From the sequence record MN850580.1: a stretch of 64,000 bases of DNA; one strand, written 5' to 3'. This document shows positions 27,021-44,891 of the stretch, in pieces (positions within the stretch are counted from its first letter, which is position 1; each line of letters opens with the position of its first letter). Position numbers and translations under genes: made by a program. This DNA is from Escherichia phage momo. The notes under the pieces are model-generated. The model did no database searches, was not told the origin of the DNA, and worked only from the letters and a program-made list of their open reading frames with translations.

Positions 27021-28637
27021 TCAACGTCTAAGCCCCTCATATGGGTTTCCTCTCACTAAGTCTGTGTGAGCACCCATTGATGGTGGCTTGAATAATTTAA
27101 CTTCGTTAAGACTGTTGAAAGCATCACTGGTAGCATCCACTTGGTCATCTTTAGTTTTGCCATCACCACAAAAGCCTTCAAGCTCTTGGAAATAAGCTTC
27201 GTTCCAACTACCTCTCAAAACTTTTACAAGTCCAGCTTCAGAAGCAGCAGAAAACCCCGCAAAGCGGGTAACTTTATCTTTATTTGTTGGTTTGGCTCTT
27301 GCTCGATAACCTTTCTCGGCAAGTTTCCTGATGAGGGATGTTGCGTAGGATTTACCAGCAGCGCCTGGGTCTTGAGGGATAAAAATACCAGTTCGCTTAC
27401 CGTCACTTTCAGCAGTCAAATTAATTTGTGTTTCGACTCCAGAGGGTCTATCTCTAAATCTTACTACATCAATGATATAATAGCAACCGTCTTTTTTAGA
27501 TTTACCCATCTTAACACCTGCTGTCCAGTCTGGATTAGGGTTAATTTCAGATGGTAAAGTTGCTGCTAAGTCCCATGCCCTAACATCAAATACATCCTCT
27601 GGGAGTGAATCAACAATTTCACACCATTGTCTTTGCCAATAGTTTGAACCTTCTGCACGAGCCTTCCAGTTACCGAAACGAAGTCTTGCAACGTTTACAG
27701 GGGTGTTGTTTTCCAACTTACCGCGATACTTTGGTTCTAAGAAGTCAAGAATTGGGTTATCATCAATCGTACCAGAGATGAAGGTGTATGTTTGAGGAAT
27801 CTCAAGAGGGAACATTTCAAGAATCTTGTCTCTCTCCCAATCAGAAACCATCACACCATCATTCATTACATACCAACGAATACGACCACACTTTTCAGGG
27901 TCTGGATAACCTTCTTCATCTAAGAATGGTTCTACCCAATCATAAATAAAGTGGTCTCTGTCTGGGTTCATGGAAATCTTCATGTATGAATCACCTTCAG
28001 CACCAGAACGTAGACGGGTTTGTAGGTATGAAATCTGTGAAGCAGAGAAGTGTGTACCTTCGTCAAAGTAAATAGCTGAGTATTCAATACCCTGATGACC
28101 TTCAGCGTGCTTTTCAAGTTCTAGGTAGGTAAACTTGATAGTCGCCCCAGAAGGGAATGTGATAGTCATTTTCTGCTCGTGAGGAATCCCACCAAACTTA
28201 CCAAATAGTTTCTTTGCAGCAGGCCATAAACCACCTTGTAACTGTGTTGTATTTCGACGGAAATATACAGCATTATAGTTAGGGTCTTCAATAAATCTTA
28301 AAGAGTCCATTAACAATGCAGCAGTTTTACCAGCACCAGCAGCACCACCATAAAGAACCAAGTCAGCATTAGTGTTTAAAAAGACCTCTTGAGAACCCGG
28401 TTGAGGGGCTACATAGTTCTTATCAGTCATCAATTTAAAGATAAGGCGAACTTGGTCTGGTGTGTATCTTAATAAAGTCAGAATTTGAGTTGGAAGGAAT
28501 TTAGAGGGGTCTTTACCGAATGATTTGATAATTTCTTTTACTTCATCAGAAAGCCCCAACTCTCCAGCTAGGACTTTCCTAACATCTTCCACTCGCTTCT
28601 GCTTAACAGCATTTAAGTCCATTAAGCACCTCCGCAA
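27021..28637 (-). CDS. terminase large subunit
   Basis: Walker A LYGGAAGAGKT, ATPase then nuclease-type C-terminal half, 538 aa. Confidence 0.85.
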   Translation of the reverse strand: MRRCLMDLNAVKQKRVEDVRKVLAGELGLSDEVKEIIKSFGKDPSKFLPTQILTLLRYTPDQVRLIFKLMTDKNYVAPQPGSQEVFLNTNADLVLYGGAAGAGKTAALLMDSLRFIEDPNYNAVYFRRNTTQLQGGLWPAAKKLFGKFGGIPHEQKMTITFPSGATIKFTYLELEKHAEGHQGIEYSAIYFDEGTHFSASQISYLQTRLRSGAEGDSYMKISMNPDRDHFIYDWVEPFLDEEGYPDPEKCGRIRWYVMNDGVMVSDWERDKILEMFPLEIPQTYTFISGTIDDNPILDFLEPKYRGKLENNTPVNVARLRFGNWKARAEGSNYWQRQWCEIVDSLPEDVFDVRAWDLAATLPSEINPNPDWTAGVKMGKSKKDGCYYIIDVVRFRDRPSGVETQINLTAESDGKRTGIFIPQDPGAAGKSYATSLIRKLAEKGYRARAKPTNKDKVTRFAGFSAASEAGLVKVLRGSWNEAYFQELEGFCGDGKTKDDQVDATSDAFNSLNEVKLFKPPSMGAHTDLVRGNPYEGLRR

Positions 28638-28643
28638 ATAGAA

Positions 28644-28844
28644 TTATTCAGAGTCTGTAGCAGTCTCTTCTTTCTTAACTTCGAACTTTGCATCAACAGC
28701 ATCAAGAAGTGCATCCATAGAGGCTTCTTTGATATCAATACCTGTTGCTACAGATAATCTATCTGCAATTGCCATGATAGTGTTCTGCATAAATTCTAGC
28801 TTTTTGTTAGCTTCATAAAGTTCTTTATAAACGGTCTCACTCAT
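28644..28844 (-). CDS. small hypothetical protein upstream of terminase
   Basis: 66-aa ORF with GGAG RBS. Confidence 0.4.
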   Translation of the reverse strand: MSETVYKELYEANKKLEFMQNTIMAIADRLSVATGIDIKEASMDALLDAVDAKFEVKKEETATDSE

Positions 28845-28877
28845 TATGTTTTCTCCAAATAATTAACCATGTTTCTC

Positions 28878-28905
28878 CTTAAAAAAGACGGCACAGAGAC
28901 CGTCA
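28878..28905 (-). terminator. rho-independent terminator ending the tRNA transcription unit
   Basis: gacgg-loop-ccgtc hairpin followed by TTTTTT on minus strand. Confidence 0.55.
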
Positions 28906-29066
28906 AGGAGAAACCACAATGTACGTCAGAGACATACTGTATAAGCCTTCTTATAAAGTATAACTCTGTAAAAAAGCCCTGTCTAAAAATACTCTTCGGT
29001 AGCGAAAGGAAGAATACTTATAGCAGGGCATTATTATTATTTTAATTGAGAGAGAGTAAAATAACT

Positions 29067-29142
29067 TGGAGAATCCGAAGGGACTCGAACCCTTATAAAC
29101 CTGTTTTGCAGACAGGCACATATCCATTTCTGTCACGGATTC
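29067..29142 (-). tRNA. tRNA-Cys (anticodon GCA)
   Basis: Hand-folded: acceptor GAAUCCG/CGGAUUC, anticodon loop CUGCAAA, T-loop UUCGAGU, CCA encoded. Confidence 0.7.
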
Positions 29143-29146
29143 AAAT

Positions 29147-29239
29147 TGGAGGAAGATACCAGACTTGAACTGGTACACCGATTTCTCAGCTACTGGCAGT
29201 TTAGCAAACTGCTCCCTTACCTTTTAGGGTTAATCTTCC
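29147..29239 (-). tRNA. tRNA-Ser (anticodon GCU), class II
   Basis: Anticodon stem GCAGU/ACUGC, loop UUGCUAA, long variable arm, T-arm ACCAG/CUGGU. Confidence 0.65.
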
Positions 29240-29240
29240 A

Positions 29241-29975
29241 TTATTTCTGTAATGCGCTCTTCATTTCTGGTGTTGCAATAGTGTCAATCACACCAGTTTT
29301 ACAAGCATCGTCAAACCAGTCTGGTAAGATACCTGCTAAGAACCCATTGATATTCGTTTTAAGGTACTCTGCAATAAGGGCAGCTTCTTCTTCAATCATC
29401 TGCACAACTTCATCTGCATAAGCTGTAATCTTTGAAATACCTTCATTAATCTTACTGACAGCTTGGTTAGCTAAATCAGAAACAGTATCAAGACCCTTAT
29501 CAATAGCATCTTGTAAGTCACTTAACACACCATTAACACTATCTAGTGTACTGTTCATCATGTCAATAGCTTTTTGACCATACTCTGTAGCAACACCCAT
29601 GATACCACTGAATGGTGTACAACCAACTTGTTCTCCTGCTGCACCCATAACATTGGAATACCCCTTTGCTACCTGCATACGTGATGAAAACTCATCAATA
29701 GATTTTTGACCGTAGTCTGTCAGAGTTTTAGTAGTTGCTGTAGTGCTTGTAAGGCTTGTTGTAAAGCTGTTTAGAAGGACTGTTGTAAGTCCAGCAGCAA
29801 CAAGTTTCTCCTTCATTGTAGGGTCTGTTACAGAACTAATAGAGCTTACAAGTGATGTAGAAGCAGCTACGGTTCCACCGAGAACTGCTGCACCAGTAAT
29901 AAGCGGGTTAGAGAACCCTTTACCAGTTTTTAAGAGATTAAAAATCTCCTTACCTTGTTCTGTCATCTCTTTCAT
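29241..29975 (-). CDS. hypothetical protein embedded in tRNA array
   Basis: Track ORF 29241..30038 uses GTG that overlaps tRNA-Phe; internal ATG at 29975 has AAGGTG RBS. Confidence 0.5.
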   Translation of the reverse strand: MKEMTEQGKEIFNLLKTGKGFSNPLITGAAVLGGTVAASTSLVSSISSVTDPTMKEKLVAAGLTTVLLNSFTTSLTSTTATTKTLTDYGQKSIDEFSSRMQVAKGYSNVMGAAGEQVGCTPFSGIMGVATEYGQKAIDMMNSTLDSVNGVLSDLQDAIDKGLDTVSDLANQAVSKINEGISKITAYADEVVQMIEEEAALIAEYLKTNINGFLAGILPDWFDDACKTGVIDTIATPEMKSALQK

Positions 29976-29991
29976 TAAGCACCTTTGAAAT

Positions 29992-30068
29992 TGGTAGTCC
30001 AGTGGGATTTGAACCCTCTTCTCATGTTTTTCAGACACGCGCTTTAACCATATAAGCTACTTGGACTA
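29992..30068 (-). tRNA. tRNA-Phe (anticodon GAA)
   Basis: Acceptor UAGUCCA/UGGACUA, anticodon stem CGUGU/ACAUG, loop CUGAAAA. Confidence 0.6.
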
Positions 30069-43226: not shown

Positions 43227-43236
43227 AATATCTTAA

Positions 43237-43270
43237 GAGCCTCCTTAATTGGGGGCTTTTTAATTTTTAT
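43237..43270 (+). terminator. rho-independent terminator ending the + strand block
   Basis: gagcctcc-ttaatt-gggggctt hairpin followed by tttttaattttta. Confidence 0.55.
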
Positions 43271-44880
43271 AAAATTTTATCGGTTGTCCCAACCTCTGGG
43301 TCACCATCATATGTGAATAAAATATCTACCCTTCTTAACAACCTTCTTAAGCTTACTCTCTATATATAGTTATATAGTACTATATAGTATCTTAGTATCT
43401 ATCTAGTGGTCTTAATAGCCCCTCTGTATAGCCCTTCTAAATAGCCTTCTAAACACTCTTCTAACAAGCCTTCTTAATAACCTATACAATCACCTTAACC
43501 ATTCCTCTACACACTCTTAGAAGCTCCTATACACCTCTTAATCTCTATGTCAGCTATGATACCCTCTATAGGTGTTCACTAGGTACTACTAAGCCTCTAT
43601 ATAGACTGTTTTAACAAACTTAACAGGAATATCTTCACAGACTTTATCTCACAAGGTCTAACACGGCACTAACAAGGTATCTTATAAGCCTGTTTCTACC
43701 TGTATTTTTAAAAGACTGTATAGGTAATTATTCAGAATCTTAAAATTTTTATAAAATAGAGCTATCAAGTCATTTTTTAGGGTCTTTGAAGGAACTGAAA
43801 AATATCTGTAGAAGATGTATATCTGCTTGGTAGCCCTTAACAGCCCCCTTACAAGTACTTTGCAAAATTTTAAAATATCCTTAACAATCTCTTAACAGTT
43901 CTCACACCTTCTTAACAACTCTTCAAAGGTCTTAACAGATTCTTAACAGAACTAACAAGGATGTAACAGTTTTCTAACAAGTGCTGAATAGGCTTTACAG
44001 AATCTTAACAGATGACTAACAAGAGCTAAGTAGTTAAATGTTAAGAGTTATTTTGTTAAGATAATTAACAAGTTTCTAACAAGTGTTTAATCTTTTTAAC
44101 AAGCTATTAACATGGTCACTACTCTTTTCTTATCGTTCCCTTTGCTTCTTAGTGATTCTTTAAACATACCTCTTAAAAGCCCTCTATAGCTCCTTGTAAG
44201 CTCTTTTAAGTCTCTTCCTAGTATTTACCCCCAACTATACAGACACCTCTTTATAAGGCTTTACAGAAGCTTTAAAGGCTATGTCAAAGGCTCTTACAAG
44301 GCTTTTACATGGTCTTAACAGAGATTTAACAAGGGGCTAACAAGTTGCTAACAAGTGCCTTAAAAGCATAACTATGTAGGGTTTGTTAAGAAATTGTTAA
44401 GAAAATGTTAAGGGGGCTAGCATTTACGTAACTTTTAAGCTACTTCAAAATAACTTTTAAACTACTTCAAAATAACTTTATAGCCCCCTTCTTAGATATT
44501 CACAAGATAGCTAACGAGATAATAAAGCTTACACCCTTATAAGATTCTTTTAAGTCTCTGGGAAGCTTTATAAAGGGCTTTTTAGGGTGAGTTAATGCAA
44601 TCCCTTAAGTTAGGTTGATAAGGCTGTTATAGAGCTTTATAGAGCGTTTAAACGGTTGCCCTTCCCTTTCGGGTTATGGGCTTATATTTAAGTTGATTTG
44701 ATAAAAGGCTATAGAGTAGACTATAGAGTTATTGCTTTTTAAGGTCTGATAAGATTCTGGAAAGGAAAGGGAAAGGGCTGTATAAGGGATTTGATAAGAC
44801 GTAAAAAAGCCCCTATGAGATAGACTCTATCGAATCTATATGGGAAAGGGGCTGTAAAGGTATCTGGGGCTATTTAGCCC
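43271..44880. repeat. 1.6-kb non-coding word-repeat region (YTAACAR, CTTCTAA, TATAGT words; tandem 21-bp repeat at 44437-44478)
   Basis: No ORF of 60 aa or more on either strand; YTAACAR words at about 10-12 bp spacing in 43900-44110. Confidence 0.65.
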
Positions 44881-44891
44881 CGTTGCGGCGT

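What the first reader, a model, noticed from the sequence alone, without database searches (positions are those of the whole stretch)
43271..44880. 1.6-kb ORF-free word-repeat region where transcription converges
No ORF of 60 aa or more on either strand. The sequence is built from recurring short words (CTTAACAG, CTAACAAG, CTTCTAA, TATAGT), with YTAACAR copies spaced about one helical turn apart around 43900-44110 and a tandem 21-bp repeat at 44437-44478. It separates the rightward + strand block from the leftward small-gene block. Iterated short sites at helical spacing are characteristic of replication origins, packaging or terminal-repeat regions, or arrays of regulator-binding sites.
Basis: seen in the sequence. 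Interest (0 to 1): 0.6.

Follow-up and report, generated by a model that had tools for sequence, protein, structure and literature searches.

The report
Terminal-repeat region of Felix-O1-like phage
The gene-free, word-repeat stretch is the place where the linear DNA of this Felix-O1-type phage begins and ends: it holds the roughly 590-base terminal repeat already mapped in close relatives, so it is an ordinary, known feature, although the phased TTAACA words inside it look like an undescribed docking array for the packaging machinery.

Summary
The window is a Felixounavirus (Felix O1-like myovirus) genome. Window 43227-44891 has no conserved ORF, lies between two converging operons that each end in a terminator, and is built from strongly over-represented short words.

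Its central 589 bp (43829-44417) is the single, collapsed copy of the genus's short direct terminal repeat (DTR). Three relatives carry an exact 581-613-bp repeat at both record ends, and a fourth annotates a 581-bp repeat. All four have boundary sequences identical to the window's. The experimentally mapped DTR of UAB_Phi87 aligns to window 44409-43827.

The YTAACAR words are concentrated in the DTR:
- 20 of the window's 84 copies lie in 0.9% of its length.
- They share one helical phase (period 10.36 bp).
- Their cores are more conserved than the rest of the DTR, and DTR identity to relatives in other genera is above that of the two flanking genes.
- They persist in four Ounavirinae genera.
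- Indels within the DTR come in 11- or 22-nt steps.
- Inverted copies abut the right boundary.

The best reading is a concatemer junction whose phased words recruit the packaging and end-cutting machinery. That role is inferred, not shown. An origin or regulator role is neither supported nor excluded. The identity is already known, so interest is low to moderate.

The parts
43235..43260 (+). Intrinsic terminator closing the rightward (+) operon.
   Evidence: A 10-bp G+C-rich stem followed by a T run. Folding energy -15.2 kcal/mol, z -2.8. Annotated as a terminator at the same place in AYO145A.
43261..43828 (.). Left unique arm of the concatemer junction. It is non-coding, C-rich on the + strand, and has its own word families: TATATAG(T) at 43361-43407 and a 12-bp CCTTCTAA unit x4.6 at 43428-43483. 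It also holds long invariant blocks, for example 43585-43612 and 43653-43695.
   Evidence: Tandem repeat finder; k-mer enrichment; 12-genome alignment.
43814..43842 (.). Left DTR boundary block GATGTATATCTGCTT|GGTAGCCCTTAACA. The inferred end or cut lies between 43828 and 43829.
   Evidence: Sequence at the DTR edge is identical in ZX4221, Ro111lw and I14.1. The block is nearly invariant in 12 genomes of three genera (one or two variable columns) and recognisable in Erwinia phage Roscha1. Run-off sequencing of UAB_Phi87 places the end 2 nt to the left.
43829..44417 (.). Direct terminal repeat (589 bp), present once in this collapsed assembly. In virion DNA it would be present at both ends.
   Evidence: Exact repeats at both record ends: ZX4221 591 bp, Ro111lw 613 bp and I14.1 581 bp, all mapping to window 44417->43829. 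Pr103Blw annotates a 581-bp DTR with the same edge sequences. The UAB_Phi87 Fig. S1 DTR aligns to 44409->43827.
43836..44113 (+). Main array of about 15 direct YTAACAR words (spacings 11, 20, 20, 11, 9, 11, 11 ...). Two inverted copies (TGTTA at 44039 and 44054) lie in an AT-rich core.
   Evidence: Cores kept in 9-12 of 12 genomes. The same spacing pattern is found in Roscha1.
44315..44354 (+). Four direct YTAACAR words at exact 11-bp spacing. Copy number varies between phages by 11 or 22 nt.
44383..44412 (-). Three inverted words (TTGTTAAGAAA x2.7, 11-bp period) abutting the right DTR boundary.
   Evidence: Tandem repeat finder, 94% matches. The first two words are kept in 12 of 12 genomes. 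The third has one variable position, in Michonne and SUSP1. Inverted TGTTA copies also lie next to the equivalent boundary in Roscha1.
44410..44428 (.). Right DTR boundary AAGGGGGC|TAGCATTTACG. The inferred end or cut lies between 44417 and 44418.
   Evidence: At least seven database records start or stop exactly here.
44418..44802 (.). Right unique arm. It starts with a hypervariable segment that holds the 22-bp tandem duplication (44429-44479). It then carries the words TATAGAG x4 (44628, 44638, 44710, 44722), TGATAA(G) x4 and GGAAAGG x3, and a small hairpin at 44658-44681.
44803..44853 (-). Intrinsic terminator closing the leftward (-) operon. Its loop carries a 25-nt palindromic insertion (44815-44839).
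   Evidence: Folding energy -20.9 kcal/mol, z -5.1, followed by a run of six U. Annotated as a terminator in AYO145A. Insertion.
27021..28637 (-). Large terminase subunit, the enzyme expected to cut at the DTR boundaries. It acts in trans and lies about 15 kb away.
   Evidence: PHROG 979, E = 1e-233. Pfam Terminase_6N and Terminase_6C. No small-subunit gene could be recognised nearby.

Best explanation
The region is the concatemer-junction region of a Felixounavirus genome.

Layout. Window 43829-44417 (589 bp) is the short exact direct terminal repeat. The assembly has collapsed its two copies into one. On either side lie non-coding arms (43261-43828 and 44418-44802), and beyond them the terminators of the two operons that run toward the genome ends.

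Inferred mechanism. During late infection, genomes are joined head to tail through one DTR copy. Terminase cuts at the two invariant boundary sequences (CTGCTT|GGTAGCCC and AAGGGGGC|TAGCAT), and the DTR is duplicated so that each packaged genome carries it at both ends.

Inferred role of the words. The TTAACA-type words all lie on one face of the helix. They run in direct orientation through most of the DTR and in inverted orientation against the right boundary. I propose they are binding sites for an oligomeric recognition protein, either a small terminase or an equivalent phage factor. That protein would mark this DNA for packaging and position the cuts.

Shown: the homology, the position of the ends in relatives, and the enrichment, phasing and conservation of the words. 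Inferred: which protein binds, and that the words act in packaging and not in some other end-related function.
For: Identity of the phage.
- 256 phage records, almost all Felixounavirus, match the region.

Position of the ends.
- ZX4221, Ro111lw and I14.1 carry 100%-identical repeats of 591, 613 and 581 bp at both record ends. All map to window 44417->43829 with identical edge sequences.
- The Ro111lw and Pr103Blw DTRs come from PhageTerm read-start analysis (PMC6454146; PMC8303462). Pr103Blw annotates the feature.
- UAB_Phi87 ends were mapped by Bal31 digestion and run-off sequencing. The published DTR sequence aligns end to end with window 44409-43827 (PMC4837284).

Functional constraint on the words.
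- YTAACAR is enriched about 26-fold in the DTR.
- The cores share a 10.36-bp phase, R = 0.81.
- TAACA cores are invariant in 84% of columns, against 51% for the rest of the DTR.
- DTR identity to three relatives in other genera (Michonne, SUSP1, ESh21) is 73-75%, against 60-72% for the two flanking genes.
- Six of seven distinct indels in the DTR are 11 or 22 nt.
- Erwinia phage Roscha1 (Kolesnikvirus) aligns over only 128 nt. It still keeps the boundary block, the spacing pattern 11, 20, 20, 20, 9, 11, 11 and inverted copies near the other boundary.

Precedent.
- Small-terminase rings present helix-turn-helix motifs about one DNA turn apart, and pac sites contain sets of direct repeats (PMC4737164).
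- From my own knowledge: lambda cosB R sites, P1 pac hexamers, and the short-repeat arrays next to the T7 terminal repeat.
Against: - The ends of this particular phage were not mapped. The window shows one copy only, so the DTR is inferred by homology.
- No small-terminase gene or other DNA-binding candidate could be identified, so the proposed binding partner is hypothetical.
- In SPP1 and SF6 the small terminase showed little sequence specificity for the pac repeats (PMC4737164), so repeats need not mean specific binding.
- The long-range phase coherence is not significant once the short gaps are preserved (19% of nulls reach it).
- Unit-wise indels could reflect replication slippage and not selection for phase.
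- Run-off sequencing of UAB_Phi87 places the ends 2 nt and 8 nt from the PhageTerm-type boundaries, so the exact cut positions are uncertain by several bases.
Confidence: 0.6

Rival explanations
1. The word array is an iteron-type replication origin. A phage initiator binds the phased TTAACA words and opens the adjacent AT-rich DNA. The DTR would then be both the end and the origin.
For: Iterated short sites on one helical face. AT-rich stretches of 80% or more lie next to or inside the arrays, at 43707-43777 and 44027-44097. Strong conservation. A dual role would not conflict with the mapped ends.
Against: No strict DnaA box, only one relaxed match (at 43312, in the left arm, outside the word arrays), and no IHF site. 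No initiator-like gene flanks the region; both neighbours are small proteins of unknown function. The words are 7-8 bp, shorter than classical 17-22-bp iterons (my knowledge). GC skew follows gene orientation and gives no independent origin signal. The inverted copies sit exactly at a DTR boundary, which an origin does not explain.
Confidence: 0.15
2. The words bind a regulator or a nucleoid protein, of host or phage origin. The protein would silence or insulate the junction, protect the incoming DNA ends, or block read-through between the converging operons. It would have no role in packaging.
For: Phased, conserved sites. TTAACA resembles the -35 hexamer TTGACA, and several weak promoter-like matches use it. 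The region lies where two operons converge.
Against: Promoter-like matches are no more frequent than in shuffles (7 against 7.2). There is no gene to regulate inside the region. Both operons already have strong terminators. The arrays are confined to the DTR and do not sit at the operon ends.
Confidence: 0.1
3. The words have no function of their own. The junction is slippage-prone, non-coding filler, and its repeats arise and spread by replication slippage and recombination. Only the two boundary sequences matter.
For: Unit-wise indels of 11, 12 and 22 nt. A non-conserved 22-bp duplication at 44429-44479. Tiny palindromic insertions sit at different places in different phages.
Against: TAACA cores are clearly more conserved than the spacers between them (84% against 51% invariant columns). 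DTR identity to three relatives in other genera is above that of the neighbouring protein-coding genes. The array and its spacing survive in a genus whose junction otherwise barely aligns.
Confidence: 0.1
4. The region encodes one or more non-coding RNAs.
For: Long conserved non-coding blocks. One small hairpin (44658-44681) shows a compensatory change in Ro111lw.
Against: No Rfam family matches even at E <= 1, apart from a chance hit on the terminator. No tRNA. No excess of promoters. The hairpin's energy is ordinary, z -0.7. Conservation follows short words and not paired stems.
Confidence: 0.05

Closest known systems
Short direct terminal repeats of Felixounavirus: UAB_Phi87 608 bp (experimental), Ro111lw 613 bp and Pr103Blw 581 bp (PhageTerm).
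   Same: Homologous sequence: 86-92% alignment identity to Felixounavirus relatives, including ZX4221, Ro111lw, I14.1 and UAB_Phi87. Identical boundary sequences. The same position between the same two converging genes. The same word content.
   Different: Nothing essential. The window holds one collapsed copy and its own ends are unmapped. Lengths differ between phages through 11- or 22-nt unit indels and a 22-nt palindromic insertion. The published papers report only the length or sequence of the repeat, not its internal word architecture.
T7/T3 concatemer junction: a 160-bp or 230-bp terminal repeat flanked by arrays of short repeats, cut and duplicated during packaging (my knowledge; Ro111lw authors call its DTR 'similar to T7', PMC6454146).
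   Same: A short, exact, non-permuted DTR in non-coding DNA. Iterated short words in and around it. Packaging from concatemers with duplication of the repeat.
   Different: No sequence relationship. The DTR is about 3.7 times longer. Here the main word array lies inside the repeat, whereas in T7 it flanks it. The flanking operons converge on the ends, whereas T7 transcription is co-directional. The terminase is a T4-type Terminase_6 protein of a myovirus.
Small-terminase recognition sites: SPP1/SF6 pac boxes, lambda cosB R sites, P1 pac hexamers.
   Same: Several short repeats about one helical turn apart beside the terminase cut site. This fits a ring of helix-turn-helix motifs spaced one DNA turn apart (PMC4737164).
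   Different: Those phages use headful or cos packaging, with far fewer repeats (3-7) over 100-200 bp. Here about 25 words are spread over 590 bp. No small terminase is recognisable in this genome. Binding is untested.
Iteron-type replication origins (lambda ori, P1 oriR, plasmid iterons).
   Same: Phased direct repeats next to AT-rich DNA.
   Different: The words are much shorter than typical iterons. There are no arrays of DnaA or IHF sites and no adjacent initiator gene. The arrays coincide with mapped genome ends.

Membership tests
Felixounavirus short direct terminal repeat / concatemer junction | Sequence homologous to a DTR whose ends were mapped experimentally. | tested here: met
   The published UAB_Phi87 DTR (PMC4837284 Fig. 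S1) aligns over its full length to window 44409-43827. Identity is 83%, including gaps from text extraction.
Felixounavirus short direct terminal repeat / concatemer junction | Boundary sequences match those at which relatives' exact terminal repeats start and stop. | tested here: met
   CTGCTT|GGTAGCCC and AAGGGGGC|TAGCAT are identical in ZX4221, Ro111lw, I14.1 and Pr103Blw.
Felixounavirus short direct terminal repeat / concatemer junction | The stretch is present at both ends of this phage's own virion DNA (fixed termini, about twofold read depth). | not testable with these tools
   Only the assembled window is available. It holds one copy.
Felixounavirus short direct terminal repeat / concatemer junction | The genome belongs to the genus and encodes its large terminase. 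| tested here: met
   256 matching phage records, almost all Felixounavirus. Large terminase at 27021-28637: PHROG 979, Terminase_6N/6C.
Terminase (small-subunit) recognition array | Repeated short sites beside the cut site, spaced about one helical turn apart. | tested here: met
   11-bp modal spacing; 10.36-bp common phase, R = 0.81; words within 10 nt of both boundaries.
Terminase (small-subunit) recognition array | A small terminase or other recognition protein is encoded and binds the sites. | tested here: inconclusive
   No small-terminase family hit for the ORFs next to the large terminase or next to the region. Binding cannot be tested here.
Iteron-type replication origin | Host-factor sites (DnaA, IHF) and an adjacent initiator gene. 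| tested here: not met
   No strict DnaA box, one relaxed match in the left arm, and no IHF consensus. Flanking genes are of unknown function with no replication domain.
Iteron-type replication origin | Origin activity. | not testable with these tools
   Needs marker-frequency or 2-D gel data.
Known structured RNA families (Rfam) / tRNA | A covariance-model or tRNA match. | tested here: not met
   Only one sub-threshold hit, which lies on the terminator. No tRNA.

The most novel reading that the evidence does not exclude
The helically phased TTAACA array is a specific nucleoprotein platform that defines short-DTR packaging in the whole Ounavirinae subfamily.

In this reading, an unrecognised phage protein (no small terminase is annotatable) coats one face of the 590-bp repeat. 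The word copies point inward from both mature ends (5'-GCCCCCTTAACA... and 5'-GGTAGCCCTTAACA...). They would direct opposite-strand nicks at the two boundaries, giving the staggered cut that lets the repeat be duplicated.

This would be the first sequence-level model of DTR recognition and duplication outside the T7/T3 group. The array might also serve as the replication origin.
Probability: 0.3. Interest if true: 0.5.

Novelty: already known. Interest (0 to 1): 0.27.

Why it matters
The result explains the odd-looking stretch as a standard feature of a well-sampled phage genus.

Practical consequences:
- Assemblies of these phages should be opened at 44417/43829.
- The small "hypothetical proteins" that some records annotate inside the region are probably spurious.

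Open question: how short-DTR phages other than T7 and T3 recognise and duplicate their ends is largely unknown. The conserved, phased, orientation-switching TTAACA array, with its invariant boundary sequences, gives a concrete set of sites to mutate or footprint in tractable Felixounaviruses such as Bas63, Felix O1 and UAB_Phi87.

Tried and rejected
- Rfam scan at E <= 1: only a chance sub-threshold hit on the terminator.
- tRNA scan of 42000-64000: none.
- Sigma-70 promoter scan: 7 sites against 7.2 in shuffles.
- DnaA, IHF and Chi sites: no cluster. Only one relaxed DnaA match in the left arm, outside the word arrays.
- Conserved small ORFs: none of 40 aa or more is shared among 12 relatives, so the tiny CDSs annotated in some records (UAB_Phi87, Michonne, ESh21) are not supported.
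- TTTTTATAAAAT as a possible phage promoter: it occurs only twice in 64 kb, both times in this region, so it is not a general promoter.
- Search for a small terminase or DNA-binding protein among ORFs near the large terminase and next to the region: PHROGs and Pfam give only unknown-function families. The large terminase has no sequence match in the PDB.
[quoted passage not shown] The record is marked circular and the repeat does not coincide with the boundaries, so it looks like an assembly overlap.
- The GenBank record of UAB_Phi87 held here (87,603 bp) is not opened at the physical ends, so I used the paper's supplementary sequence.
- PhageMaP on Bas63 (10.1101/2024.10.10.617714): it designed guides per gene, and the text I searched reports no data for this intergenic region.
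- Literature searches for a description of the word array in Felix O1-like phages found none. That covers only the held library.
- GC skew follows gene orientation and gave no origin signal.
Full report
What the window is. A megablast of 43227-44891 against 50,697 phage records finds 256 matching records, and 198 of them cover at least 80% of the query. Nearly all are Felixounavirus (Felix O1-like myoviruses of Escherichia, Salmonella, Shigella and Citrobacter). The best matches are 94.6% identical. In annotated relatives the region lies between the same two genes: homologues of Felix01p050 on the left and Felix01p049 on the right. It carries only "repeat_region" or "terminator" features.

Checking the observation. 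Between the stop of the + strand gene (43226) and the stop of the - strand gene (44892), the only ORF of 30 aa or more is a 31-aa one. Among 12 aligned genomes, no ORF of 40 aa or more occupies the same place in more than a few close relatives. The stretch has the shortest open frames of any 1665-nt slice in the window. It is also exactly what random sequence of its composition would give (longest frame 69 aa; mean 65.9 in Markov-1 simulations). It is therefore plain non-coding DNA.

The words are real.
- YTAACAR occurs 84 times in the window. Of these, 25 lie in this 2.6% of its length and 20 lie in 43829-44417.
- TAACAAG occurs 9 times against 0.07 expected, CTTAACA 8 against 0.15, TATATAG 4 against 0.02 and TATAGAG 4 against 0.013.
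- Gaps of 11 bp dominate, then 20 and 31.
- The 19 + strand TAACA cores of 43829-44417 share one phase at a period of 10.36 bp (R = 0.81). No random placement out of 5000 reached that. A null that preserves the short gaps reaches it 19% of the time, so the signal is mainly local.

Only the window and phage allfine have it. Transcription does converge. There is a + strand terminator at 43235-43260 and a strong - strand terminator at 44803-44853 (-20.9 kcal/mol, z -5.1, followed by six U). AYO145A annotates both.

What it is. When sub-fragments were searched, many database records began or ended inside the region, most of them at one position. I fetched both ends of three such records. The first and last 591 bp of ZX4221, 613 bp of Ro111lw and 581 bp of I14.1 are 100% identical within each record. 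All three map to window 44417->43829.

In window orientation every one of these repeats starts GGTAGCCCTTAACA, preceded by GATGTATATCTGCTT. Every one ends GTTAAGGGGGC, followed by TAGCATTTACG. Pr103Blw annotates its first 581 bp as "short direct terminal repeat region", with the same edge sequences.

The literature says how these were obtained. PhageTerm read-start analysis gave 613 bp for Ro111lw, described as "similar to the phage T7" (PMC6454146), and 581 bp for Pr103Blw (PMC8303462). PhageTerm also reported direct terminal repeats for the Philippine isolates that include I14.1 (PMC11737134). For UAB_Phi87, time-limited Bal31 digestion and run-off sequencing gave a 608-bp DTR (PMC4837284). 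The Felix O1 paper had inferred short terminal repeats from the genome size (PMC3185647).

The UAB_Phi87 DTR sequence is printed in that paper's Figure S1. It aligns over its whole length with window 44409->43827. That is within 2 nt and 8 nt of the PhageTerm-type boundaries.

So window 43829-44417 (589 bp) is the single collapsed copy of the genus's direct terminal repeat. The finding as a whole has this order: terminator, left unique arm, DTR, right unique arm, terminator. In the mature linear genome both terminal gene blocks are therefore transcribed outward, toward the ends.

Anatomy. The three zones use different words.
- Left arm: TATATAG(T), a 12-bp CCTTCTAA unit x4.6, and long invariant blocks.
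- DTR: TTAACA-type words. About 15 direct copies lie in 43836-44113, with two inverted copies in an AT-rich core. A 200-bp stretch of degenerate relatives (CTTWAMAG) follows. Then come four direct copies at exact 11-bp spacing (44315-44354) and three inverted copies at 11-bp spacing (44383-44412) that run to within five bases of the right boundary.
- Right arm: a hypervariable start, then TATAGAG x4, TGATAA(G) x4 and GGAAAGG.

Read 5'->3' inward from either mature end, the DNA begins with a G/C-rich run followed by TTAACA: GCCCCCTTAACATTTTCTTAACAA at one end and GGTAGCCCTTAACAGCCCCCTTACAA at the other.

Evidence that the words are functional. I aligned 12 junctions: eight Felixounavirus (including the window), two Mooglevirus and two Suspvirus.
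- Both boundary blocks and most words are invariant or nearly so.
- TAACA core columns are invariant in 84% of cases, against 51% for the rest of the DTR.
- Between the window and three relatives in other genera (Michonne, SUSP1, ESh21), the DTR is 73-75% identical. The upstream gene is 60-63% identical and the downstream gene 68-72%.
- Of seven distinct indels of 5 nt or more inside the DTR, six are 11 or 22 nt. This fits unit slippage, or selection to keep the phase.
- Erwinia phage Roscha1 (Kolesnikvirus) matches the window over only 128 nt at 72%. That match is the left boundary plus the first words. Its record starts at the equivalent of the right boundary. Its roughly 438-nt DTR analogue has 13 direct and 7 inverted TAACA cores, while 3.6 kb of flanking coding DNA has 10 on both strands. 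The spacing series 11, 20, 20, 20, 9, 11, 11 mirrors the window's 11, 20, 20, 11, 9, 11, 11, and inverted copies lie against the other boundary.

How it most likely works. Established knowledge of short-DTR phages (T7/T3; Casjens and Gilcrease, as cited in PMC4837284) says that replication produces concatemers joined through one DTR copy. Terminase then cuts at fixed sequences and the repeat is duplicated during packaging. The window encodes the enzyme, a T4-type large terminase at 27021-28637.

I infer that the phased words are the recognition array. Small-terminase rings carry helix-turn-helix motifs about one DNA turn apart, and pac sites contain sets of direct repeats (PMC4737164). The inward-pointing copies at both boundaries would suit cuts on opposite strands, as the classical staggered-nick model of repeat duplication requires.

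The weak points are these.
- This phage's own ends are unmapped.
- No small terminase or other DNA-binding candidate could be recognised.
- In SPP1 and SF6 the repeats turned out not to be bound specifically.

I put the identity of the region at about 0.95, and the packaging role of the words at about 0.5-0.6.

Rivals.
- Iteron origin. It is compatible with the phasing and with AT-rich patches. It lacks clusters of DnaA or IHF sites, an adjacent initiator gene and any skew signal, and it does not explain words placed at the boundaries.
- Regulator or insulator. Promoter-like sites are at chance level and there is nothing to regulate inside.
- Non-functional slippage-prone filler. The core-versus-spacer conservation and the cross-genus persistence argue against it.
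- Non-coding RNA. There is no Rfam or tRNA hit, and conservation follows words and not stems. One small hairpin (44658-44681) has a compensatory change in Ro111lw but an unremarkable energy.

Comparison and novelty. The feature is a member of the published Felixounavirus DTR class. Homology, boundaries, genus and terminase are all met, and only direct end-mapping of this isolate is missing. It works like the T7/T3 concatemer junction but is unrelated in sequence. It is 3.7 times longer, has its main word array inside the repeat (in T7 the arrays flank it), and lies between converging operons.

None of the papers I could search describes the internal word architecture. That part is a modest new observation inside a known feature. 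My verdict: already known, low to moderate interest.

Noticed in passing
window 1-64000: GATC does not occur once in 64 kb. Dinucleotide-preserving shuffles give 176 +/- 11 matches on both strands. This is complete avoidance of the Dam / MboI / Sau3AI site.
   Followed up: partly
L015 (UAB_Phi87), L008 (Ro111lw), L010 (PC79-13), L007 (ZX4221), L022-L029; aligned to window about 43976, 44033, 44058, 44145 and 44650: A 21-23-nt palindromic insert, GGGATTGGTAACAATACCAAT(T), sits at five or more different positions of the junction in different phages. It often lies between TA dinucleotides inside a CTAAC or TTAAG word. It is absent from this window. In IMG/VR it occurs in eight stretches. Seven are from contigs of about 88-94 kb, and six of those align to the window's junction region. 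The eighth is a 4-kb contig with no match to the window. It looks like a miniature mobile palindrome, and its 22-nt length keeps the 11-bp phase.
   Followed up: partly
window 44815-44839; also L015, L016, L017, L018: A second small palindrome, about 25 nt (ATGAGATAGACTCTATCGAATCTAT), sits in the loop of the - strand terminator here and in ZX4221. It is found at other places in UAB_Phi87 (about 44480), Michonne and ESh21 (inside the + terminator) and SUSP1 (about 44800). In IMG/VR it occurs in ten stretches. Six are from contigs of about 87-90 kb and four from shorter contigs of 22-59 kb. I did not map any of them back to the window.
   Followed up: partly
window 43829-44417 against 11 relatives: Six of the seven distinct indels inside the terminal repeat are 11 or 22 nt, and the other is 21 nt. 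In the left arm the indels are in 12-nt units.
   Followed up: yes
window 44658-44681: A small hairpin, GCCC-TT-CCC-TTTC-GGG-TTAT-GGGC, is conserved in 12 genomes. Ro111lw has a compensatory change (GCCA...TGGC and CCCC...GGGG). Its energy is not unusual, z -0.7. It could be a backup + strand terminator or a protein site.
   Followed up: partly
database records seen: Record problems.
- GU169904 'Staphylococcus phage SA1' (147 kb) contains this Felixounavirus junction at 94.8% identity, so the record is probably chimeric or contaminated.
- PP892526 (I14.1), a Felixounavirus, carries a Tequintavirus taxonomy line.
- Several records annotate tiny 'hypothetical proteins' inside the non-coding junction.
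   Followed up: no
window 43264-43275 and 43746-43757: The palindromic TTTTTATAAAAT occurs exactly twice in the window, both times in the left arm. Both copies are invariant in 12 genomes. Its function is unknown.
   Followed up: partly
window 28644-30038 (- strand): No small-terminase gene is recognisable next to the large terminase. The neighbouring ORFs (66 aa, 75 aa, and a 265-aa DUF7217 protein) have no assigned function.
   Followed up: partly
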